A stretch of 14,457 bases of DNA from a virus (Duplodnaviria > Heunggongvirae > Uroviricota > Caudoviricetes), in IMG/VR virus record IMGVR_UViG_2537562191_000039, positions 1 to 14,457 of that record. One strand, written 5' to 3'. The notes below the pieces were generated by a model. It had not been told where the DNA came from. It saw nothing but the letters and a program-made list of their open reading frames with translations, and made no database searches. Position numbers and translations under genes: made by a program. Below are positions 182 to 14,457 of this stretch, in pieces (position 1 is the stretch's first letter; each line of letters starts with the position of its first letter).

Positions 182-3100
182 GTGCTCGTCGGGGGAACAC
201 CATGTTTTACCGCGGGGCATATGGTTCTTTGTAAAAATGGCTATAAACCAATAGAAAATGTTTGCCCTGGTGATTACGTAGTCAGTCATCTCGGGCGGTT
301 ACAACAAGTAAAAAGAGTTGGTTCAAAAATAGCTAATACGGGGTTACTTAATGCCGTTGGGCAGCCTTTAGGTATAAGAACAACCAATGACCATCCCTTC
401 CTGGCTGTTCGGTGGAAAGCCCAAAACACCCGGAAAAATGGCACATATTTTAAGAGAGAGTTGTTGTCTGAACCGGAATGGCGAGCAGCATGTGATATGC
501 CGGGATATCAATGGTGCGCTCTAACTAATTTCAATATTGCATTTCCAGATATTTGTTCTCGGTTCTTGTCTGAAGAACAGGCTATGTATCTTGCGGGCGC
601 TTATGTTGGCGATGGATATATTAGGAGATGGAGAGGTAAATCTAAGAAGGCGGTTGTTTTTGGCATAAATTGCCAGAAATTGAGAAAGTTTCATTGCCGC
701 ATACCAGAAAACATATTTTCCGTGGCAAGCGAAATCCGAGGGAGCATCAAAGTAACCTTGAATGATACGTGTTATGCCAATTGGCTTAATGAACATTTTG
801 GCGAGTTAAGCCATGCTAAGCGTATCCCTGCATGGGTGATGTCGCATCCATTGCGTCATGTGTTTTTACAAGGCTATCTTGATACTGATGGGACACCAAG
901 TGGTAAAGCGGGATTTAGAATTAATAGTGTTAGTTCTGCGCTTGCTTGGGGCGTTGCGGGGTTGTCACAGACTTGTGGTTATGTTTCTTCGGTCAGCTTT
1001 ATTGAAGTTGAGCCCAAAAAAGTGATCGAGGATCGCGTGGTAAATCAACGGAATTATTATCAGGTAACAATCTGCCCGCAGAAATTGTCACGTAAATCAA
1101 GATTGGCTCATGGAATGCTTTTACGAACAGTCAAAGAGTTTAAATCGGTAGGCCTAGATACTGTATACAACATAGAAGTCGAAGGTGATCATTCCTATAT
1201 CCTCAATGGTGCGGTGGTCCATAACTGTCAGGCATTCAGTATCGCGGGATTACGTGGTGGGCTTGATGATGAGCGTGGCGCGCTAACTTTAAAGTATGTG
1301 GAGCTTGCAAATGCAATTGACGACAAACGGGCTGAGTCATTTCTCAAACCAGCCGTTATCGTCTGGGAAAATGTCCCAGGAGTCTTGTCATCGGCAGATA
1401 ACGCCTTCGGATGTTTCCTTGCCGGATTGGCTGGAGAAGATGCGCCATTTGAACCAGGTGATCGACCTGAATCAGGAAAAAGTAACACGTTCTGGCGGTG
1501 GGATGGCAAAACCGGTTGCCATGCTCCAAAGTGGCCGCAGTGTGGTTGTATTTATGGACCGCAGCGAAAAGTGGCCTGGAGAATCCTTGATGCCCAATAC
1601 TTCGGAGTGGCACAACGACGCCGACGCGTGTTTGTTGTCGCAAGTGCTCGAACAGACCTCGATCCCGCAACGGTACTTTTTGAGTTCGAAGGCGTGCGCC
1701 GGAATATTGCGCCGAGCCGAAAAAAGAAGGAAATCGCTTCCGCCATTATTGCAAATGGCGCTGCAATCAGTGGCGAAAGCCTAAATCCATGCCTACACGC
1801 TGACATGCCACCCGGTATGAAATCGACGAAAGCCGTAAACGCTTTCAGGATGGCAGCATTTGGGGAATATATTGACGATGAAACCGCATCGACAGTAAAG
1901 GCAAGAGATTTTAAAGATGCCACTGACCTTGCCGTTTTTAGCAGCACAGGAGCAGGTTTTTGGTCAGAAGGGCATGGTACATTGCGGGCACGTGAGCAAG
2001 AAAGCCATGAGCATCTTGTTACATTGGCTTTTCCTGAGCGTATGAGCGGTACACAACATGCTGCAACTAAGAATACTTCACCATCTCTAATGGCTAAAAA
2101 TCCAACAGCTGTTTGCTATGAAGTAAGAAACGCAGAAGTAGCTGTCCGCCGTCTTACCCCTGTCGAATGTGAAAGGCTGCAAGGTTTTCCTGAGGGGCAT
2201 ACGTTGATCCCGACGGAAAAGCGTAAAAAAGTTTCTTCAGATGAACTGGCATACCTTCGCAATCACTATCCAGATTTAAGCGAAGAAGAGGCCGCGATGC
2301 TTGCAGCTGACGGACCGCGTTACAAAGCGATCGGCAACAGCATGGCAGTTCCTGTTATGCAATGGATAGGGTGTCGCATTCTTGCGACCGTAGCGGATAA
2401 ACAGCAAAAAACAATAAATACCATTACCTACACAAGAAAACTCCGGACTCCGGATGAATATGAACGCCCAATATTCAAATGGGTAGGCGGTAAATTCTCA
2501 GAGTTGCCTACAGTGCTTGAGCATCTACCACACGGCAAGCGGTTAATAGAACCATTCGTTGGTGGCGGTTCCGTATTTACGAATGCAGGATTTCGCCACA
2601 ACCTGCTTAATGATATTAACGGTGACCTGATTAACTTCTATCAGACATTGCAGCGAGAGGGACATTCGCTCGTCACGCTGGCATATAGTTTTTTCAAAAA
2701 TTACAACAACGCTGACGCTTACCTCGAAGTGCGTGAGGCATTTAACAGAGGAAAGTATGACCAACTACATCATGCTGCTGCCTTTTTGTACCTTAATCGG
2801 CACTGTTTTAATGGCGTAACGCGGTACAACCAAAATGGCGAGTTCAACGTAGGGTATGGCAAATACAAAGCGCCCTACTTCCCACATGCAGAGATGGAGG
2901 CATTTTTGGCTGATGACGTACTCAAAAACACTTCCTTTGTATCAGGTGACTTTGCTAGCGTCATTGAGGCGGCTGGTGAAGACGATGTGATTTTTTGTGA
3001 TCCGCCGTATGAACCGCTTCCGGATACAGAGGGATTTACCAGCTATTCAGGAAATAGCTTCCGTTTCGACGAACAGAAACGGCTTGTATCACTGTTGGTG

Positions 3101-3274
3101 GATGCCCACCAGCGCGGCGCTAAGGTAGTGATAACAAATAGTGGTGCTCCAAACATCCGTGAACTATATGAAGGAAACGGGTTTAAAGTACATCATATGG
3201 CAGCCAGACGGTCGGTTTCCTGCAAGGCGTCAACACGTGTAGTTGCTAACGATATAATTGCAATAATGAAGTAA
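182..3274 (+). CDS. Fused DNA methyltransferase: C5-cytosine MTase domain (motifs IV-X only, intein-interrupted) plus Dam-like N6-adenine MTase domain; 5'-truncated by the IS
   Basis: ORF-track protein of 1030 aa. C5-MTase motifs appear in canonical order: motif IV split by the intein (SPDVLVGGTP|CQAFSIAGLRGG), motif VI VIVWENVPGV (ENV at nt 1367-1375), motif VIII YFGVAQRRRRVFVVA, motif IX RRLTPVECERLQGFPEGH, motif X AIGNSMAVPV. The last ~290 aa carry Dam-family motifs: KWVGGK, EPFVGGGSV (nt 2555-2572), FLYLNR, EFNVGYGKYK, FCDPPY (nt 2999-3010). No motifs I-III are present. Reading upstream in frame hits TGA at 113-115 inside the IS end, so the GTG at 182 (no Shine-Dalgarno) is probably not the ancestral start. 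Confidence 0.85.
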   Translation: MLVGGTPCFTAGHMVLCKNGYKPIENVCPGDYVVSHLGRLQQVKRVGSKIANTGLLNAVGQPLGIRTTNDHPFLAVRWKAQNTRKNGTYFKRELLSEPEWRAACDMPGYQWCALTNFNIAFPDICSRFLSEEQAMYLAGAYVGDGYIRRWRGKSKKAVVFGINCQKLRKFHCRIPENIFSVASEIRGSIKVTLNDTCYANWLNEHFGELSHAKRIPAWVMSHPLRHVFLQGYLDTDGTPSGKAGFRINSVSSALAWGVAGLSQTCGYVSSVSFIEVEPKKVIEDRVVNQRNYYQVTICPQKLSRKSRLAHGMLLRTVKEFKSVGLDTVYNIEVEGDHSYILNGAVVHNCQAFSIAGLRGGLDDERGALTLKYVELANAIDDKRAESFLKPAVIVWENVPGVLSSADNAFGCFLAGLAGEDAPFEPGDRPESGKSNTFWRWDGKTGCHAPKWPQCGCIYGPQRKVAWRILDAQYFGVAQRRRRVFVVASARTDLDPATVLFEFEGVRRNIAPSRKKKEIASAIIANGAAISGESLNPCLHADMPPGMKSTKAVNAFRMAAFGEYIDDETASTVKARDFKDATDLAVFSSTGAGFWSEGHGTLRAREQESHEHLVTLAFPERMSGTQHAATKNTSPSLMAKNPTAVCYEVRNAEVAVRRLTPVECERLQGFPEGHTLIPTEKRKKVSSDELAYLRNHYPDLSEEEAAMLAADGPRYKAIGNSMAVPVMQWIGCRILATVADKQQKTINTITYTRKLRTPDEYERPIFKWVGGKFSELPTVLEHLPHGKRLIEPFVGGGSVFTNAGFRHNLLNDINGDLINFYQTLQREGHSLVTLAYSFFKNYNNADAYLEVREAFNRGKYDQLHHAAAFLYLNRHCFNGVTRYNQNGEFNVGYGKYKAPYFPHAEMEAFLADDVLKNTSFVSGDFASVIEAAGEDDVIFCDPPYEPLPDTEGFTSYSGNSFRFDEQKRLVSLLVDAHQRGAKVVITNSGAPNIRELYEGNGFKVHHMAARRSVSCKASTRVVANDIIAIMK
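203..1225 (+). other. Intein (Hint splicing domain with LAGLIDADG homing-endonuclease insert), 341 aa, inserted at the catalytic Cys of the C5-MTase PCQ motif
   Basis: Begins with Cys (TGT 203-205) directly after GGTP, with an N-terminal block CFTAGHMVLCKNGYKPIENVCPGDYVV. Block B is TNDHPF. Two LAGLIDADG-type motifs, LAGAYVGDGY (nt 590-616) and FLQGYLDTDG (nt ~866-892), each retain the Asp. Block F is VYNIEVEGDHSY. Ends ILNGAVVHN (AAC 1223-1225) followed by +1 Cys (TGT 1226-1228). Removing it joins GGTP to CQAFSIAG, restoring GG.PCQ.FS.AG. Confidence 0.8.
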
Positions 3275-3322: not shown

Positions 3323-4984
3323 TTAACCTAACTTCGCCCAGGTATCACGCAGCCCAACGGTGCGGTTAAATACCGGTTTTTCCGCCGTAGAATGGCGGCT
3401 GTCGAGGCAGAAATAACCTTCACGCTCAAACTGGAATGCTTTACCCGCTACCGCTTCTTTCAGCGACGGTTCAGCAAAGCCCTGTTTGATCACCAGCGAT
3501 TCCGGGTTAATCACCGACAGGAAATCATCCGCAGCACCTGGGTTCGGCACGTTGAACAGACGATCGTACAGGCGGATTTCAACCGGCAGCGCATGTGCCG
3601 CGCTCACCCAGTGAATAACGCCTTTCACTTTACGACCATCTGCCGGATCTTTGCTTAAGGTGTCGGCGTCATAAGTACAGAAGATGGTGGTGATATTGCC
3701 TTCGGCATCTTTCTCCACGCGTTCAGCCTTAATGACGTAAGCATTACGCAGACGCACTTCTTTACCCAGCACCAGACGTTTGTACTGCTTGTTAGCTTCT
3801 TCGCGGAAATCGGCGCGGTCGATCCAAATCTCACCGCTAAACGGCACCTGACGGCTACCCATTTCCGGTTTGTTTGGATGGTTCGGCATGGTGACCATTT
3901 CGCCTTCGCCCTGGTAGTTTTCGATAACCAGTTTCACCGGATCGATAACCGCCATTGCGCGCGGGGCATTTTCGTTGAGATCTTCACGGATGCAGGATTC
4001 CAGCGACGCCATCTCAATGGTGTTGTCCTGCTTGGTCACGCCGATGCGTTTGCAGAACTCACGAATAGAAGCCGCAGTGTAACCACGACGACGCAGACCG
4101 GAAATGGTCGGCATACGCGGGTCATCCCAGCCTTCAACGTGCTTGTCGGTCACCAGCAGGTTCAGCTTACGCTTGGACATCACGGTGTATTCCAGATTCA
4201 GGCGCGAGAATTCGTACTGGCGCGGATGAACAGGAATGGTGATGTTGTCCAGTACCCAGTCATACAGACGACGGTTGTCCTGGAACTCAAGCGTACACAG
4301 AGAGTGCGTAATACCTTCCAGCGCATCGCTGATGCAGTGGGTGAAGTCGTACATCGGGTAGATGCACCACTTGTTGCCAGTCTGGTGGTGTTCAGCAAAC
4401 TTAATACGGTACAGCACCGGGTCGCGCATCACGATAAACGGCGAAGCCATGTCGATTTTCGCACGCAGGCAGGCTTTACCTTCTTCAAAACCACCGGCAC
4501 GCATTTTTTCGAACAGCGCCAGGTTCTCTTCAACGCTGCGGTCGCGGTACGGGCTGTTTTTACCCGGCTGCGTCAGGGTGCCGCGGTATTCGCGGATCTG
4601 TTCCGGCGTCAGTTCGTCAACATACGCCAGGCCTTTGTTGATCAGTTCAACAGCATAGGCATGGAGTTTGTCAAAATAATCGGAGGAGTAACGGATGTTG
4701 CCAGACCAGTGAAAACCTAACCATTCAACGTCGTTTTTAATCGACTCAACGTACTCGATATCTTCTTTTACTGGGTTAGTGTCGTCGAAACGCAGGTTGC
4801 ACTGGCCTTTATAGTCCTGGGCGATCCCGAAGTTCAGGCAGATAGATTTCGCATGACCAATATGCAGATAGCCATTCGGTTCCGGCGGGAAACGGGTATG
4901 TACTGTGGTGTGCTTACCACTGGCCAGATCTTCATCGATGATCTGACGAATAAAGTTAGTCGGGCGGGCTTCTGCCTCACTCAT
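3323..4984 (-). CDS. glnS: Glutamine--tRNA ligase (glutaminyl-tRNA synthetase)
   Basis: 553-aa product begins [48 protein letters not shown], with the class I HIGH motif and a VMSKR (KMSKS-type) motif. Full length and near-identical to E. coli GlnRS as I recall it. The flanks are not the chromosomal nagE/chiP neighbours. Confidence 0.97.
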
Positions 4985-10834: not shown

Positions 10835-12532
10835 GTGAATAAAAACATTCAGCCAGCTCGTGATCGCGAGCGCGAGATTATGAATCGGGCGGCAAGCGTC
10901 ATGGCTATGACCGTCGATCCGACCACCGATGCAGCAGGCAACATGATTGCTGACCAGGCAGTAATGATGGAAAACCTGGATAAAGCAATCCAGAAAGTGC
11001 CTATGTTTGAAGGCGTAAATCCAGAGGTCGCTCGTCAGATCACTGGTGGGTGGGCTATGTCTCTGCATGAGTATAAACGTCAACATGGTCATTACCCGGC
11101 AAGTGACATCCTGGCGAACGCACACATGGCTCTTGAACGCCTGATGACTGAATGTGCCAGTGATACCCATGAAGGCACGGGTAAGGCAATGTTTGAGTCT
11201 GTCGCGCAATCAATGCGTAGCTCTGACGGCGTAATGAAAGTTGCTCAATATGCTGCTCTAATTCTGCCTGCCTCTCTGGGCGCTGCTACCAGTGATGCCT
11301 GTACTTTTGTTCCTTGTGATCGTGACGAGTCAAATATTTATGAACTGGTCAACGTAGCAGGCACAAAATTCGGCACCTTCAAACAAGGTGACGAACTGAA
11401 TATGCAGTCAGCTGGTGTTTATTCTCAAATGAAGCGCCTGTATACCCTTTCCACTAAAGGGGATGGCAGCACCAAAACCTTCCAGTTCGACATCCAAAAT
11501 TTTGAGGGACAATCCTGCCCGCTTCGCGCTGGTTATAACAAACTGCTGATCAACCGCAAACCGTCCAAAGTTGACGACGGCGATGGCAACCTTTATTTCA
11601 ATGCTAAAGACAGCAAAGGTAATGCTTTCTCAGCGACTGCCAAAGTTGCCTATGACACTGGTGTCATTGACATTACATTTACCCAGGCTCCGCCAGAAGG
11701 TACTGAAATTGCTGTTCAGGTCGAAATTAACATCGAGCGCAATCCAAGCCTGATTCCTGTGATCAACCAGGCTATGCGTAAGTACGAAGTTCGTCCGTCC
11801 CAGTACGTAATTGCTTCCGAACACACGGTAATGTCCGCATCCGATTTAAGCCGTGAGCACGGCCTTGAATTAGCGGCACTTCAGTTCTCCGCGATGCGTA
11901 ACTGGATCTCCCATGAAACTGACATCATGCGTCTGCGCACCCTGGTATTCCATACCGTTTATGGCCGTGAATTTGATGTGGCTCTGCCGGAAGCTCAAAA
12001 CTATGAGTCCTGGGTCGGCCTCCTGCGTCACGTAGTAAACGCTCTGTCTCAGGAAATGGCAAATCGTACCCTGACAACGGGTATTCGTGGCGGCTTTGCT
12101 GGTGGTGACGCCGCGAACTTCCTGCGCTCTCTGCCTCCACAGCACTTCCAGATCGCACCAGGTTACGTTCAGTCGCCGTATGTACAGTACATCGGCACCC
12201 TGTTTGGCACGATTCGTATTTACGAAGTGCCGCAACCTGTCTGTGAGCAATTCCAGGCACAGGGATATGACTTCGGGCTGGATGACATCTTCTTCTATGG
12301 GCGTGGCGAAGGCATCGGTAAAGCCGGTCTGATTGCTGGTGATGCAGTCCCTGCAATCCCTTACGTGCACGAAACCAATCCGTCTCTCGTTAACCGTACC
12401 ACTCTCTGGGGCAGTGCCATCAACGAAGTACATCCTCGCAACGGTGAAAACTACTTCACTCGCCTGCGTCTGACTCGTGCCAAAGAAGGCGCTATCGACA
12501 TGCTGACAGGCAAGGTTAACGAAAAAAAGTGA
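10835..12532 (+). CDS. Putative major capsid protein (large phage head protein); exact family not established
   Basis: 565-aa ORF with GTG start (an in-frame ATG at 10880 is an alternative). It is followed by an Ig-like decoration-type gene and ends in an A_AAA_AAG slippery heptamer. The C-terminal region loosely recalls T4 gp23-type capsid proteins, but this is from memory only. The gene is certainly real; the product call is tentative. Confidence 0.5.
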   Translation: MNKNIQPARDREREIMNRAASVMAMTVDPTTDAAGNMIADQAVMMENLDKAIQKVPMFEGVNPEVARQITGGWAMSLHEYKRQHGHYPASDILANAHMALERLMTECASDTHEGTGKAMFESVAQSMRSSDGVMKVAQYAALILPASLGAATSDACTFVPCDRDESNIYELVNVAGTKFGTFKQGDELNMQSAGVYSQMKRLYTLSTKGDGSTKTFQFDIQNFEGQSCPLRAGYNKLLINRKPSKVDDGDGNLYFNAKDSKGNAFSATAKVAYDTGVIDITFTQAPPEGTEIAVQVEINIERNPSLIPVINQAMRKYEVRPSQYVIASEHTVMSASDLSREHGLELAALQFSAMRNWISHETDIMRLRTLVFHTVYGREFDVALPEAQNYESWVGLLRHVVNALSQEMANRTLTTGIRGGFAGGDAANFLRSLPPQHFQIAPGYVQSPYVQYIGTLFGTIRIYEVPQPVCEQFQAQGYDFGLDDIFFYGRGEGIGKAGLIAGDAVPAIPYVHETNPSLVNRTTLWGSAINEVHPRNGENYFTRLRLTRAKEGAIDMLTGKVNEKK

Positions 12533-12645
12533 TGGTGGCGAACGTGTCGGTATCACCAACGTCACTTGACGTAGATGAAGGTGAAACTATCGCCGCGAAC
12601 ACTTCAAAGGCACAGAAAAAAACAAAGCAGAAGTAAGGCAAAAAC

Positions 12646-12666
12646 ACGCCCCTGAATAAGGGGCGT
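12646..12666 (+). other. RNA hairpin between the capsid gene and the Ig-like gene (not a canonical terminator)
   Basis: Stem ACGCCCC (12646-12652) / GGGGCGT (12660-12666) with a 7-nt loop. No U-tract follows; it is followed directly by AGGAG (12669-12673) and ATG 12680. Confidence 0.35.
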
Positions 12667-12679
12667 TCAGGAGAAAAGA

Positions 12680-12958
12680 ATGGCAAACATTCAAGTAACT
12701 ATCTCGCCATCTGACGCAACAGACAAATCTTTCACTGTTGAGTCCGATCACCCTGAAATTGTCCAGGTTGATGGCACTACATGTACCGCTCTTAAGGCCG
12801 GGCAGGCAGTGCTGACAATCAAAACAAATGACGGCAATAAAACCGCACAGTGCACAGTCACTGTTAGGGAGGCACCTAAAAGCGTAAGCGCCGTCAGTGT
12901 TGAACCAACTACGAAAGAAGTAACCGTAGGCGACAACTTCACGGTAAGCGAATCCTGA
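12680..12958 (+). CDS. Ig-like (Big_2-type) domain protein, probable head decoration or accessory protein
   Basis: 92 aa. VTISPSDATDKSFTVESDHPEIVQVDGTTCTALKAGQAVLTIKTNDGNKTAQCTVTV fits the bacterial Ig-like group 2 pattern. RBS AGGAG is 6 nt upstream. The C-terminal VSAVSVEPTTKEVTVGDNFTV looks like the start of a second, truncated Ig-like domain. Confidence 0.65.
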   Translation: MANIQVTISPSDATDKSFTVESDHPEIVQVDGTTCTALKAGQAVLTIKTNDGNKTAQCTVTVREAPKSVSAVSVEPTTKEVTVGDNFTVSES

Positions 12959-12962
12959 TCAG

Positions 12963-12989
12963 AGGCTGCCCATTAACCGTGGGTAGCCT
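12963..12989 (+). other. RNA hairpin downstream of the Ig-like gene; possible weak terminator or attenuator
   Basis: 10-bp stem AGGCTGCCCA (12963-12972) / TGGGTAGCCT (12980-12989) with one G-U pair and a 7-nt loop, followed by a pyrimidine-rich rather than clean U tract. Confidence 0.3.
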
Positions 12990-13025
12990 TGCCTCGTTCT
13001 CTCGCTTTAGAGGATAAGAACCAGC

Positions 13026-14457
13026 ATGAATAAGATTAGTTTTTCGGTAGGGCAGGCAGCTGGCGTTGCTGTAATGTCAGTCAATGCTGACGCTACCCTC
13101 ACCAATACCAGCGGTGGCGCTTCCGTCTTTGCTGGGCTTGTAATATCGCGTCGTGGCGCACCGGGTAAGGTACTGAAAGTTGACGATACGACTTATCAAA
13201 GCGTATTAGGTTCACCGATTCACCCTCGCCTGGGCGCGGCATTTGAACCATACCGCCACGTGGAGCGTGCAGTAAAAGGCGGTTCTGGATATGTCGTTCG
13301 AGTTTGCGCTAAAGACATGAAGGTACCGGGTATTTCTGTTTCCGTTGTGGGCAGAGCAAAAGCGGCAAAGGCGAGTAAAGAACTTTCCGTTGAACCAACT
13401 GAAACCACAGTAAATCCAGGTGACACATTAAGCGTTGGTGTTGCTTCAACAGTAACGACTCAATCAGAGGTCTTCACACCAAAAGAGACGCCTCAGATAA
13501 AAGGTGATGAGAAAGCATTATTCTTCATCAAAGATGGTGATGCATCTCAAAATCGCACGTTATCACTAACCCGCGATAATGAAGAAAGCGAACTCTTTAC
13601 GCTGACGCTGAAAGAAAAACAAACTGATGGGTCCATTGAGGTACTGGAAAGCCACCAGGTGTCCTTCAATCCAGAAGGCACTAACGACATGGGCCAACCT
13701 GCATGGATTCCGACACTGCTTGAAAGCCAGTCCACTCGCATTGGTGCCGTGCTGGCAGATGATGCAGAAGCATCTGCTGCTCAACTCATTTTTGAGGATG
13801 TAGCTTTTGAAGGTGGTACTGATGGCGATCTGTCCACAATTAACACTGAAGACTATCTGGAAGCATTAAAGGTTCTCGAAGCTTCAGAGGTTAATTACAC
13901 CGCATTGCTGTCACTGGGTTGTTATGACGCATCCGCCTTAGCCGCAATCAAAAAGCTGGCTGAAGATGTTCGCGTAGACATGTTCTATGACCTGAAGGGC
14001 AACCAGACACCTGAAAACGCTATTTCAGAAGCGAAAAGCCATAGTTTTGGCGGCTCACATCAACCAAGCCGTTACTACTTCCCGCTTTCCTGCCGAGATA
14101 CCTTCACTGGGATGAATGTCGTCTATGGCATTAGTTGCGACGCATTCGTAGCGAAAGCAAAAGGAGTTGCGCTGGTACCGGATGTTGGTGGTTGGCATTA
14201 CGCACCCGCAGGTATATCACGCGCGATTATTGATCGACAGAACATTGCCCGAATTCCAAATATCGGTGCAGTTGATCGTGAAGCGTTCGTTCTTGCGCGC
14301 ATTAATCCAGTTTCAGTTGCTGCTGACGGGTCCGTTTACATTGACGACTCTTTAACAACTTACAGCAAAAACAATTATCTGCGATTCCAGCATGTGTCTT
14401 CCTTGATGAACGCCATCGCCAGAAATTTCTATGACGTAGCTCAGGCGATTAAGCACG
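13026..14457 (+). CDS. Large phage structural protein with an internal Ig-like segment (possibly tail sheath or another major virion protein); 3' end off-window
   Basis: ATG 13026 is preceded by AGAGGA. Frame 0 is open to the window end (at least 477 codons), which is why it is absent from the ORF track. Internal Ig-like stretch KELSVEPTETTVNPGDTLSVGVAS (nt ~13381-13449). The N-terminal VFAGLVISRRGAPGKVLKVDDTTYQSVLG loosely resembles sheath-protein N-termini. Product call is low confidence. Confidence 0.55.
   Translation, partial: MNKISFSVGQAAGVAVMSVNADATLTNTSGGASVFAGLVISRRGAPGKVLKVDDTTYQSVLGSPIHPRLGAAFEPYRHVERAVKGGSGYVVRVCAKDMKVPGISVSVVGRAKAAKASKELSVEPTETTVNPGDTLSVGVASTVTTQSEVFTPKETPQIKGDEKALFFIKDGDASQNRTLSLTRDNEESELFTLTLKEKQTDGSIEVLESHQVSFNPEGTNDMGQPAWIPTLLESQSTRIGAVLADDAEASAAQLIFEDVAFEGGTDGDLSTINTEDYLEALKVLEASEVNYTALLSLGCYDASALAAIKKLAEDVRVDMFYDLKGNQTPENAISEAKSHSFGGSHQPSRYYFPLSCRDTFTGMNVVYGISCDAFVAKAKGVALVPDVGGWHYAPAGISRAIIDRQNIARIPNIGAVDREAFVLARINPVSVAADGSVYIDDSLTTYSKNNYLRFQHVSSLMNAIARNFYDVAQAIKH

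What the first reader, a model, noticed from the sequence alone, without database searches (positions are those of the whole stretch)
12518..12708. A_AAA_AAG slippery heptamer at the capsid gene 3' end, with a -1 frame ORF that encodes the missing N-terminal strands of the downstream Ig-like domain
The capsid ORF ends ...gaA AAA AAG TGA (heptamer at 12523-12529), the canonical -1 frameshift motif. The -1 frame continues for 35 codons (to TAA 12634-12636) and encodes VMVANVSVSPTSLDVDEGETIAAN..., which looks like the first beta-strands of an Ig-like (Big_2) domain. The separately initiated 92-aa gene, in the capsid's own frame, encodes the rest of such a domain but lacks those first strands. Short direct repeats link the two pieces: ACTATCGCC (12586-12594) with ACTATCTCGCC (12698-12708), and GCGAACAC (12595-12602) with GCAAACAT (12683-12690). 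Between them lie a stop, a hairpin and an SD-ATG. Phage structural proteins are known to gain C-terminal Ig-like domains by programmed frameshifting. This locus looks like a frameshift-appended Ig domain that has been split or rearranged, or possibly one joined by an unusual recoding event.
Basis: partly seen in the sequence, partly recalled or inferred. Interest (0 to 1): 0.6.

Follow-up and report, generated by a model that had tools for sequence, protein, structure and literature searches.

The report
Capsid frameshift feeding a split Ig domain
In D6-like phage-plasmids of E. coli, the capsid gene very probably uses an unannotated ribosomal frameshift to add a 35-residue tail, and that tail carries the first two strands of an Ig-like domain whose remainder is made as a separate small protein, which suggests a new way of clipping decoration proteins onto a virus shell.

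Summary
The window matches E. coli plasmid pE2863-2 exactly over the 501-nt junction tested and is 98.9% identical to phage D6. Its P1 gp23-type capsid gene ends GA A_AAA_AAG TGA, and the -1 frame stays open for exactly 35 codons.

Among 50 unique junctions from relatives, all 27 with an out-of-frame extension plus the Ig gene keep the heptamer. All three stop codons follow it, and the overlapping ATG is not conserved. A sister lineage (L037/L038) encodes the homologous extension in frame, fused to the capsid. Relatives without the Ig gene lack the heptamer.

An HMM of Big_2 strands A/A', built only from non-split relatives, ranks the -1 peptide first (E=2e-4) in the six-frame D6 genome. The C-terminus of the 92-aa protein ranks second (E=0.02). 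That protein's core covers only strands B-G. The split is conserved under purifying selection, so it is not decay, and recoding by bypass is not supported.

Best reading:
- A programmed -1 frameshift makes a minor 66-kDa capsid species (about 0.8).
- Its tail docks the 92-aa protein by beta-strand complementation (about 0.4, inferred only).

The frameshift-appended Ig extension is a known kind. The split donor/acceptor layout is a new variant.

The parts
10835..12532 (+). Major capsid protein gene (P1 gene 23 homolog), 565 codons plus TGA; 62.4 kDa
   Evidence: ORF list. D6 annotates it as 'major capsid protein, similar to P1 gene 23'. 44% identical to P1 gp23. phrog_1014 at E=6e-220. Mass.
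12523..12529 (+). Slippery heptamer A_AAA_AAG in the zero-frame register (the last two sense codons of the capsid gene)
   Evidence: Invariant in all 27 unique junctions that have an out-of-frame extension, and absent from the other 23.
12530..12532 (+). Zero-frame stop codon immediately 3' of the heptamer. It is TGA here and TAA or TAG in relatives.
12535..12596 (+). Putative frameshift-stimulating stem-loop, 5 nt after the heptamer. Base stem GUGGCGA (12535-12541) pairs with UCGCCGC (12590-12596). Upper stem GGU/UCACC (12549-12557) pairs with GGUGA/ACU (12580-12588).
   Evidence: MFE -27.2 kcal/mol, z=-1.72. Consensus fold. 98% of cells paired against 25-57% when slid, but no double compensatory change. 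Stem columns vary in 4 of 30 against 17 of 38 elsewhere, p=0.008. dS in this ORF is 2-6 times lower than in the flanking genes.
12529..12636 (+). The -1 frame extension: 35 codons (VMVANVSVSPTSLDVDEGETIAANTSKAQKKTKQK) plus TAA. It encodes Big_2 strands A/A' followed by a basic tail. D6 annotates it from ATG 12532 as the separate hypothetical orf50.
   Evidence: The predicted trans-frame capsid is 600 aa, 66.0 kDa.
12646..12666 (+). Intergenic hairpin 1 (ACGCCCCT / AGGGGCGT, 5-nt loop) between the extension stop and the SD of the 92-aa gene
   Evidence: A compensatory C-G to A-U change is visible in the L006/L007 lineage. An analogous hairpin sits at the same place in L037.
12669..12673 (+). 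Shine-Dalgarno AGGAG, 6 nt upstream of the ATG of the 92-aa gene
   Evidence: A GGAG-type SD and the ATG are conserved in all lineages.
12680..12865 (+). 92-aa protein (p92), residues 1-62: Big_2 strands B-G. This is the acceptor, an Ig domain that lacks strands A/A'.
   Evidence: Pfam Big_2 profile positions 23-79. The full-domain HMM hits positions 21-87. This is the best-modelled part of the AF2 model, pLDDT about 70-82. Foldseek top hits are Big_2 domains 7quz and 2l04.
12866..12883 (+). p92 residues 63-68 (REAPKS): a linker of normal inter-repeat length
   Evidence: pLDDT below 50. Comparable to the 3-6 residue linkers in tandem Big_2 arrays. It is 4 residues shorter in variant P0012.
12884..12958 (+). 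p92 residues 69-92 (VSAVSVEPTTKEVTVGDNFTVSES) plus TGA: strands A/A' and the start of B of a second Big_2 repeat. This is a second donor segment.
   Evidence: A/A' HMM second-best hit in the D6 genome, E=0.02. Placed before the p92 core it extends the Pfam match to positions 2-79. 14 of 24 residues are invariant among homologs. dN/dS 0.11.
12963..12989 (+). Intergenic hairpin 2 (AGGCTGCCCA / TGGGTAGCCT) between p92 and the sheath gene
   Evidence: several compensatory substitutions between lineages.
13026..14457 (+). Tail sheath gene (P1 gene 22 homolog); runs past the window end. It does not complete the second Ig repeat.

Best explanation
During late translation of the capsid mRNA, a fraction of ribosomes slip back one base on A_AAA_AAG. 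The single E. coli tRNA-Lys re-pairs from AAA-AAG to AAA-AAA just before the stop codon. A stem-loop 5 nt downstream probably helps. These ribosomes read 35 more codons in the -1 frame and make a minor 600-aa (66.0 kDa) capsid species alongside the 565-aa (62.4 kDa) major one.

The added tail is not a whole Ig domain. It is strands A and A' of a Big_2 domain plus a short basic tail. The next gene has its own SD and ATG and makes a 92-aa protein (p92). p92 consists of strands B-G of that domain, a normal inter-repeat linker, and strands A/A' of a further repeat.

The proposed mechanism is beta-strand (donor-strand) complementation. The capsid tail inserts into the incomplete Ig fold of p92 and so tethers it to the shell. 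The frameshift frequency sets how many attachment points each capsid has. p92's own C-terminal A/A' strands cannot reach back with a 6-residue linker, so they could recruit a further p92 in the same way.

Shown here:
- the heptamer, its register and the open -1 frame;
- their perfect co-occurrence with the Ig gene;
- the in-frame fusion of the homologous tail in a sister lineage;
- the identity of the tail, the p92 core and the p92 C-terminus as Big_2 segments A/A', B-G and A/A';
- purifying selection on all pieces.

Inferred only:
- that frameshifting actually occurs, and at what rate;
- that the stem-loop stimulates it;
- that the tail and p92 physically complement each other;
- that p92 sits on the capsid.

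My probabilities are about 0.8 for the frameshift and about 0.4 for complementation. The confidence value of 0.7 refers mainly to the frameshift-plus-split-domain core of this explanation.
For: Evidence for the frameshift:
- The heptamer is in register at the last two codons with the stop immediately after it, and the -1 frame is closed just upstream.
- Of 50 unique junctions, 27 have the Ig gene, A_AAA_AAG and an out-of-frame extension. The stops are 14 TGA, 11 TAG and 2 TAA. The extension is exactly 35 codons in 26 of them. The other 23 lack the heptamer.
- The ATG that overlaps the stop is lost in the TAG lineages (VMV becomes VAV).
- L037/L038, from two independent metagenomes, encode ...QVNGTSGTVVEGVTLSPASITVSAGDEITAGNTKKDS* in frame. 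This is collinear with the D6 trans-frame product.
- L012 (Rosenbergiella) ends its capsid gene with G_GGA_AAG TGA, a 4-nt spacer, an 11-bp perfect stem and a 72-codon -1 ORF.
- dN/dS is 0.33-0.47 in the -1 frame against 0.5-4.5 in the other frames. dS is 0.31-0.43 against 0.8-1.8 in the flanking genes. Stem columns are less variable, p=0.008.
[quoted passage not shown] Frameshift-derived Ig-like coat extensions are known (PMC5009743).

Evidence for the split Ig domain:
- Pfam coverage is 23-79 for p92 alone and 2-79 with either donor in front. The same holds for the L037 pair.
- Non-split relatives read straight through the break.
- The joined sequence aligns continuously to the Big_2 domain of 7quz, E=1e-8.
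- The A/A' HMM ranks the extension first and the p92 C-terminus second in the whole D6 genome.
- D6 has no other Big_2 acceptor.
- Among 354 Big_2 alignments, only these two lineages have a gene that starts at strand B.
Against: - There is no direct evidence of a trans-frame protein.
- The stem-loop has no double compensatory substitution (12 of 15 pairs never vary) and its folding z-score is only -1.72.
- Invariance of the four heptamer-bearing codons on its own is weak evidence, P about 0.06.
- All lineages have an AUG or GUG within a few bases of the stop, so separate re-initiation cannot be excluded.
- Strand complementation could not be modelled. The monomer AF2 model of p92 is mediocre, pLDDT 64.
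- In L037 every capsid subunit would carry the tail, so frameshifting is not intrinsically required for function.
- The D6 genome paper could not be read, so a prior mention cannot be excluded.
Confidence: 0.7

Rival explanations
1. The -1 ORF is a separate 33-34-residue micro-protein, as annotated in D6 (orf50). It would be made by termination-reinitiation at the AUG or GUG next to the capsid stop, not by frameshifting. It could still complement p92 but would not be attached to the capsid.
For: UGAUG and UAAUG stop-start overlaps occur in the D6-type lineages, and a GUG lies a few nt after UAG in the others. D6 annotates it as a CDS.
Against: There is no SD. The AUG is not conserved. The homologous peptide is covalently fused in frame to the capsid in L037/L038. 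The heptamer co-occurs perfectly with the out-of-frame state. A conserved stem sits at canonical frameshift spacing. A parallel textbook cassette exists in L012.
Confidence: 0.1
2. The same capsid-extension fusion is made by transcriptional slippage. RNA polymerase adds one A in the A7 run, giving an mRNA that reads GAA AAA AAA GUG and encodes an identical protein.
For: The run of seven A's at 12522-12528. The protein product would be indistinguishable from the ribosomal one. Homopolymer length is visibly unstable in assemblies.
Against: From my own knowledge, productive slippage in E. coli generally needs runs of about 9 or more. The conserved element is exactly the ribosomal heptamer plus a structure 5 nt downstream. 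The parallel L012 site G_GGA_AAG has no long homopolymer.
Confidence: 0.07
3. The heptamer and the -1 ORF are non-functional leftovers of an ancestral capsid-Ig fusion that was disrupted. Only the 92-aa protein is functional.
For: The extension is short. Its dN/dS (0.33-0.47) is higher than for the neighbouring genes. The stem lacks covariation.
Against: The extension keeps exactly 35 codons in 26 of 27 unique junctions across four deep lineages. It has an in-frame counterpart with the same end point. Its synonymous change is suppressed. The A/A' match is significant genome-wide. A highly shifty site would be costly at the end of the most highly expressed late gene unless it were used (PMC5009743).
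Confidence: 0.05
4. Translational bypassing (a T4 gene 60-type hop), or some other recoding event, joins the -1 peptide to the 92-aa protein into one continuous Ig domain.
For: AAC at 12598-12600 and AAC at 12686-12688 could serve as take-off and landing codons 88 nt apart, with a hairpin between them.
Against: The pair becomes AGC/GAC in relatives. No stop follows the take-off codon. The basic tail after it is conserved as protein. The downstream gene has a conserved SD and ATG. The in-frame lineage still terminates there. The supposed linking repeats are at chance level.
Confidence: 0.02

Closest known systems
Frameshift-derived C-terminal Ig-like extensions of phage major coat or tail proteins (T3 gene 10B, Lactobacillus phage A2 major head protein, Listeria phages A118/A500/PSA), reviewed in Atkins et al. 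2016, PMC5009743
   Same: A programmed frameshift at the 3' end of the major capsid gene gives a minor, C-terminally extended species carrying Ig-fold sequence. Whether a given lineage joins the extension in frame or by frameshift appears interchangeable, as the review notes and as seen here for L037 against D6.
   Different: In the known cases the extension is a complete Ig-like domain. Here it is only about 20 residues (strands A/A') plus a basic tail. The rest of the domain is a separately initiated protein.
E. coli dnaX -1 frameshift cassette (A_AAA_AAG plus a 3' stem-loop)
   Same: Identical heptamer and the same host tRNA-Lys logic. There is a stem-loop about 5-6 nt downstream.
   Different: No conserved upstream SD-like stimulator was seen. 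The zero-frame stop lies immediately after the heptamer. The stem is long and imperfect and is not supported by covariation. The shift lengthens the product instead of truncating it.
Donor-strand complementation/exchange in pilus assembly: chaperone-usher pili, and type V pili where C-terminal strands of one subunit fill the groove left by a missing N-terminal strand of the next (my own knowledge, not tested here)
   Same: An Ig-like fold lacks an edge strand, and a terminal extension on another polypeptide matches that strand. p92 carries both an acceptor and a donor, as a polymerising pilin does.
   Different: There is no homology to pilins. No chaperone, usher or activating protease is evident. 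Physical complementation is not demonstrated. The setting is a phage capsid.
Ig-like capsid or tail decoration modules: lambda gpV C-terminal Big_2 domain, T4 Hoc, T5 pb10, N4 decoration protein
   Same: A Big_2 or Ig fold displayed on a virion. The closest solved phage relative is the lambda gpV C-terminal domain. phrog_215 is described as 'structural protein with Ig domain'.
   Different: Those proteins either are covalently part of the structural protein or bind through a dedicated capsid-binding domain. p92 has no such domain, only an incomplete Ig fold plus donor strands.
Lambda G/GT-type frameshift (G_GGA_AAG)
   Same: The L012 relative uses exactly this heptamer at its capsid stop, with a strong hairpin.
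   Different: It is in a capsid gene and not a tail chaperone gene. The extension there is an Ala/Gln/Asp/Lys-rich low-complexity tail, not Ig-like.

Membership tests
Programmed -1 ribosomal frameshift cassette | X_XXY_YYZ heptamer in the zero-frame register | tested here: met
   A_AAA_AAG at 12523-12529; the zero-frame codons are GAA AAA AAG.
Programmed -1 ribosomal frameshift cassette | The -1 ORF is open from the shift site, conserved in length, and under purifying selection in that frame | tested here: met
   35 codons in 26 of 27 unique junctions. dN/dS is 0.33-0.47 in the -1 frame against 0.5-4.5 in the other frames.
Programmed -1 ribosomal frameshift cassette | The shift site is conserved wherever the downstream ORF is out of frame, and dispensable where it is in frame | tested here: met
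   27 of 27 out-of-frame junctions have the heptamer, 0 of 2 in-frame junctions, and 0 of 21 junctions without an extension. Codon invariance alone gives only P about 0.06.
Programmed -1 ribosomal frameshift cassette | A 3' stimulatory RNA structure 5-9 nt downstream | tested here: inconclusive
   A stem starts 5 nt downstream and is 98% paired across lineages, with suppressed synonymous change. But there is no double compensatory change and z is only -1.72.
Programmed -1 ribosomal frameshift cassette | The trans-frame protein is detected, or frameshifting is measured | not testable with these tools
   Needs proteomics or a reporter assay.
Frameshift-appended Ig-like domain on a phage structural protein | The host gene is a major capsid or tail protein and the shift is at its 3' end | tested here: met
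   P1 gp23 homolog. The heptamer forms the last two codons.
Frameshift-appended Ig-like domain on a phage structural protein | The extension encodes a complete Ig-like domain | tested here: not met
   The extension covers only Big_2 profile positions 2-22. It has no Pfam hit on its own. It matches HMM positions 4-27 of 88.
Pfam Big_2 (PF02368) for the 92-aa protein | Score above the gathering threshold | tested here: met
   31.3 bits against a cut-off of 22.8.
Pfam Big_2 (PF02368) for the 92-aa protein | Full-length domain (strands A-G) within one polypeptide | tested here: not met
   Only profile positions 23-79 are covered. The same is true in the L037 homolog, positions 23-77.
Donor-strand complementation systems | An acceptor Ig-like fold that lacks an edge strand | tested here: met
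   Met at the sequence level only.
Donor-strand complementation systems | A donor segment on another polypeptide that matches the missing strand(s) | tested here: met
   The capsid extension and the p92 C-terminus are the two best A/A' HMM hits in the D6 genome. Each restores full Big_2 profile coverage.
Donor-strand complementation systems | Physical insertion of the donor strand into the acceptor in a complex | not testable with these tools
Only a monomer model was obtained, pLDDT 64.
Translational bypassing (T4 gene 60 type) | Matched take-off and landing codons conserved in relatives, with a stop after the take-off codon | tested here: not met
   AAC/AAC in the window but AGC/GAC in the Shigella, L006 and L007 lineages. 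ACT, not a stop, follows the take-off codon.

The most novel reading that the evidence does not exclude
The locus encodes a self-assembling, non-covalent Ig fibre primed by the capsid. The frameshift tail (donor only) inserts its A/A' strands into the first p92. That p92's own C-terminal A/A' strands insert into the next p92, and so on, as in pilus donor-strand exchange. The frameshift rate would set the number of fibres per head. This would be the first donor-strand-exchange polymer described on a virus particle, and the first case where recoding supplies only a 'primer strand' rather than a whole domain.
Probability: 0.25. Interest if true: 0.8.

Novelty: new variant of a known kind. Interest (0 to 1): 0.6.

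Why it matters
D6-like phage-plasmids are common. The junction is present on plasmids in 83 of 5,426 complete E. coli genomes, and also in Shigella and Salmonella plasmids. Yet the capsid frameshift is not annotated in any record I inspected. The extension is either called a hypothetical 34-aa protein or ignored.

Recognising the frameshift corrects the gene model of the major virion protein and predicts a second capsid species.

More broadly, the conserved division of one Ig domain between a capsid tail and a separate small protein suggests a modular attachment principle based on strand complementation. That would explain how a decoration protein with no capsid-binding domain is held on the shell. 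It could also be exploited for phage display or for capsid decoration in trans.

It also adds two independent capsid-end -1 frameshift cassettes (A_AAA_AAG and G_GGA_AAG) to the P1 supergroup, plus a natural in-frame control lineage. Together these make a convenient system for studying how frameshift efficiency tunes virion stoichiometry.

Tried and rejected
- AF2 on p92 alone gave pLDDT 64. No coordinates are available to check whether the C-terminal hairpin docks. Foldseek only confirmed a Big_2 fold.
- The exhaustive HMMER search with p92 returned 20,131 hits, topped by giant tandem Big_2 proteins. It showed that p92 is a phase-shifted repeat unit but found no other split cases.
- The word-indexed search found only close homologs of 88-95 aa.
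- The D6 genome paper (Gilcrease & Casjens 2018) is not held under its DOI or its PMC id. Literature searches found no report of a D6-like capsid frameshift and no strand-complemented Ig decoration.
- Bypassing was rejected.
- Covariation in the stem was sought and not found.
- A weak Big_2-like hit in the upfB-like gene was checked and rejected.
- An apparently fused 599-aa capsid in the FWSEC0003 plasmid turned out to be a homopolymer assembly artefact.
- An upstream SD-like stimulator (AAGG, 12512-12515) is not conserved in relatives.
Full report
**What the window is.** The junction (12300-12800) is 100% identical to E. coli plasmid pE2863-2, and positions 12000-13400 are 98.9% identical to Escherichia phage D6, a P1-related phage-plasmid. 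The ORF at 10835-12532 is the major capsid protein: 44% identical to P1 gp23, and phrog_1014 at E=6e-220. The tail sheath gene (P1 gene 22 homolog) starts at 13026. In P1 and most relatives the sheath gene follows the capsid gene after about 45-66 nt. Only the D6-like lineage and one sister lineage carry an extra 380-490 nt containing an Ig-like gene.

**Checking the observation.** The capsid gene ends AAC GAA AAA AAG TGA. A_AAA_AAG therefore lies at 12523-12529 in the X_XXY_YYZ register, with the stop immediately after it. The -1 frame is closed by TAA at 12517-12519. Read from 12529 it gives VMVANVSVSPTSLDVDEGETIAANTSKAQKKTKQK and then TAA at 12634-12636. A perfect 8-bp hairpin (12646-12666), an AGGAG (12669-12673) and the ATG at 12680 of a 92-aa gene (p92) follow. 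p92 alone matches Pfam Big_2 only at profile positions 23-79 (31.3 bits). With the -1 peptide placed in front, the match covers positions 2-79 at 38.5-42.1 bits. ACTATCGCC overlaps the 3' arm of a conserved RNA stem, described below.

**Is the -1 peptide really the missing part of the domain?** There are three independent lines of evidence.
- In 28 non-split Big_2 relatives that I inspected, the frame reads straight through the equivalent point. An example is VAVSGLTLSPAELSLDEGESKI|ITATITPSDATD. The D6 break therefore lies in the A'-B turn.
- A conceptual join aligns continuously with solved Big_2 domains: 7quz at E=1e-8 over query residues 2-94, and lambda gpV 2l04.
- I built an HMM of the A/A' segment from 198 non-split domains, none of them D6-like, and scanned the six-frame translation of the complete D6 genome (146,808 residues). 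The top hit is the capsid -1 ORF (18.5 bits, E=1.8e-4). The second is the C-terminus of p92 (12.1 bits, E=0.02). Everything else has E of 0.5 or more. A full-domain HMM hits the p92 core only at positions 21-87.

D6 therefore has one acceptor (p92 strands B-G) and two donors (the capsid extension, and p92 residues 69-92, VSAVSVEPTTKEVTVGDNFTVSES). There is no other Big_2 sequence in the genome. The exhaustive HMMER search shows that p92 residues 2-90 align continuously to tandem Big_2 arrays. p92 is thus a repeat unit whose boundaries are shifted by about a quarter of a domain.

**Is the extension made by frameshifting?** I collected about 260 loci from related phage-plasmids, viral contigs and metagenomes. 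They gave 50 unique capsid-end junctions:

| Junction type | Unique sequences | Detail |
|---|---|---|
| Ig gene, A_AAA_AAG, out-of-frame extension | 27 | stops 14 TGA, 11 TAG, 2 TAA; extension exactly 35 codons in 26 |
| Ig gene, no heptamer | 2 | L037/L038, extension in frame |
| No Ig gene, no A_AAA_AAG | 21 | includes L012, described below |

- The ATG that overlaps the stop in D6, used for its 'orf50' annotation, is replaced by GCA in the TAG lineages.
- The decisive comparison is L037/L038, two contigs from different metagenomes with capsids 74% identical to the window's. Their capsid ORF continues in frame as ...DYLTGQVNGTSGTVVEGVTLSPASITVSAGDEITAGNTKKDS*. This is collinear with the predicted D6 trans-frame product ...DMLTGKVNEKK|VMVANVSVSPTSLDVDEGETIAANTSKAQKKTKQK*. 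A hairpin, an SD and a separate 96-aa p92 homolog of the same architecture follow.
- A further relative, L012 (Rosenbergiella), ends its capsid gene with G_GGA_AAG TGA, a 4-nt spacer, an 11-bp perfect stem and a 72-codon -1 ORF. This is an independent textbook cassette at the same position.

**Selection and RNA structure.** Between deep lineages the extension has dN/dS of 0.33-0.47 in the -1 frame and 0.5-4.5 in the other two frames. Its dS (0.31-0.43) is 2-6 times lower than in the capsid 3' end (0.77-1.45) or in p92 (1.2-1.8). That indicates an overlapping nucleotide-level constraint.

The RNA folds into a two-part stem starting 5 nt after the heptamer: GUGGCGA 12535-12541 with UCGCCGC 12590-12596, and an upper stem 12549-12557 with 12580-12588. 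The MFE is -27.2 kcal/mol with z=-1.72. Stem columns vary in 4 of 30 against 17 of 38 elsewhere (p=0.008). The formal pair count shows 98% pairing against 25-57% for slid partners. However, 12 of 15 pairs never vary and there is no double compensatory change. The structure is therefore plausible but not proven. Invariance of the four heptamer-bearing codons by itself is also only weak evidence, P about 0.06.

From the literature, A_AAA_AAG is the dnaX shift site, is among the most shift-prone heptamers in E. coli, and is absent from its 306 most highly expressed genes. Frameshift-derived Ig-like C-terminal extensions of coat proteins are known for T3, A2 and the Listeria phages, with apparent indifference between in-frame and frameshift joining (PMC5009743).

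**Is the split decay or design?** Both p92 parts are under strong purifying selection (dN/dS 0.08 and 0.11). All 12 database homologs are 88-95 aa long, and 14 of the 24 C-terminal donor residues are invariant. The break point, stop, hairpin (with a compensatory change) and SD-ATG are shared with L037/L038. Among 354 Big_2 alignments in about 160 other loci, no other gene begins at strand B. The split is therefore a conserved, lineage-specific design.

**Proposed mechanism.** A minority of ribosomes shift -1 and produce a 600-aa, 66.0-kDa capsid species next to the 62.4-kDa major one. Its tail supplies strands A/A' to the incomplete Ig fold of p92 and so tethers it to the capsid.

The linker between p92's last core strand and its own donor is 6 residues, the normal inter-repeat length, and is 4 residues shorter in one variant. 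By general Ig-fold topology the N- and C-termini lie at opposite ends of the sandwich; this is my own knowledge. Such a linker is too short for the donor to fold back on its own core. That donor is therefore available for another p92, which makes head-to-tail chains conceivable.

These structural steps are inference. Multi-chain modelling was not possible, and the monomer model is of moderate quality (pLDDT 64). I put the frameshift at about 0.8 and complementation at about 0.4.

**Rivals.**
- Separate re-initiation of a 34-aa peptide, about 0.10.
- Transcriptional slippage in the A7 run, which would give the same protein, about 0.07.
- A non-functional remnant, about 0.05.
- Bypassing, about 0.02. 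The AAC/AAC pair becomes AGC/GAC in relatives, the tail after the take-off point is conserved as protein, and the downstream gene has its own conserved SD-ATG.

**Novelty.** A frameshift-appended Ig extension on a phage coat protein is a known kind, and the D6 cassette is an unannotated new member. The new element is that recoding delivers only the first two strands of the domain. The rest sits on a separate protein that itself ends in a further pair of donor strands. I found no precedent for this in the held literature, but I could not read the D6 genome paper. I class it as a new variant of a known kind, interest 0.6.

Noticed in passing
L012:4195-4440 (Rosenbergiella metrosideri JB07, NZ_JALBCV010000011.1): A second, independent putative capsid-end -1 frameshift cassette in the P1 supergroup. 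It has G_GGA_AAG TGA, a 4-nt spacer, an 11-bp perfect stem and a 72-codon -1 ORF. The ORF encodes an Ala/Gln/Asp/Lys-rich low-complexity tail with no Pfam or PHROG hit. A terminator-like hairpin and the sheath gene follow.
   Followed up: partly
L037:4186-4618 and L038 (IMGVR_UViG_3300013827_000023 / 3300025735_000294): A sister lineage in which the homologous A/A' extension is fused in frame to the capsid, with no heptamer. Every capsid subunit would carry it. This is a natural control for the role of frameshifting in setting stoichiometry.
   Followed up: yes
L262 (NZ_CP031917.1, E. coli FWSEC0003 plasmid), locus 1022-1030: The A7 run reads as A5, and two other A-runs are each one base short. 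PGAP therefore calls a fused 599-aa 'capsid protein' and misses p92. This is almost certainly long-read homopolymer error, but it places the predicted trans-frame product in RefSeq by accident.
   Followed up: yes
window 12616-12622; L026 and one duplicate locus: There is a second run of seven A's inside the extension ORF. Two viral contigs have one A fewer there, which changes the tail to ...KKQSRSKAKTRP (41 codons). Whether this is a real variant or a sequencing error is undetermined.
   Followed up: no
window 10877-10920: A 44-nt run that is invariant among six capsid genes differing at 28% of sites overall. It is by far the longest invariant run in the gene (the next is 17 nt). It lies at codons 15-29 near the 5' end. 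Gene callers disagree on the capsid start (543, 550 or 565 aa), so this may mark the true initiation region or another overlapping element.
   Followed up: no
window 12963-12989: The hairpin between p92 and the sheath gene shows several compensatory substitutions between lineages: AGGCTGCCCA/TGGGTAGCCT here, GGACTCCTCA/TGGGGAGTCC in one relative, and AGCCTCCCCA/TGGGGAGGCT in another. It is a conserved intergenic RNA structure, perhaps an attenuator or an mRNA stabiliser that sets capsid:Ig:sheath ratios.
   Followed up: partly
window 12635-12666, minus strand: Read on the minus strand, hairpin 1 followed by GTTTTTG scores as an intrinsic terminator. However, the A-run that would provide the T-tract is deleted in the Shigella, L006 and L007 lineages, so this is probably incidental.
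   Followed up: partly
window 12230-12960 compared with L057/L031: A mosaic boundary near the capsid 3' end. Against L057, the last 100 capsid codons have dS=0.62 while the extension and p92 have dS of 0.05-0.085. This implies recent recombination that moved the extension+p92 module as a unit.
   Followed up: no
window 3323-4984 (-) and 182-3274 (+): There is a phage-plasmid-encoded glutaminyl-tRNA synthetase, annotated in D6. There is also a 1030-aa Dmt-type methyltransferase whose first about 2.4 kb are not D6-like but are 91% identical to P1-group phages, which is another mosaic joint.
   Followed up: no
L007:1-401 and L008:1-401: An IS605-family OrfB/TnpB (Cas12f-like) gene lies just upstream of the capsid operon in one divergent D6-like lineage.
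   Followed up: no
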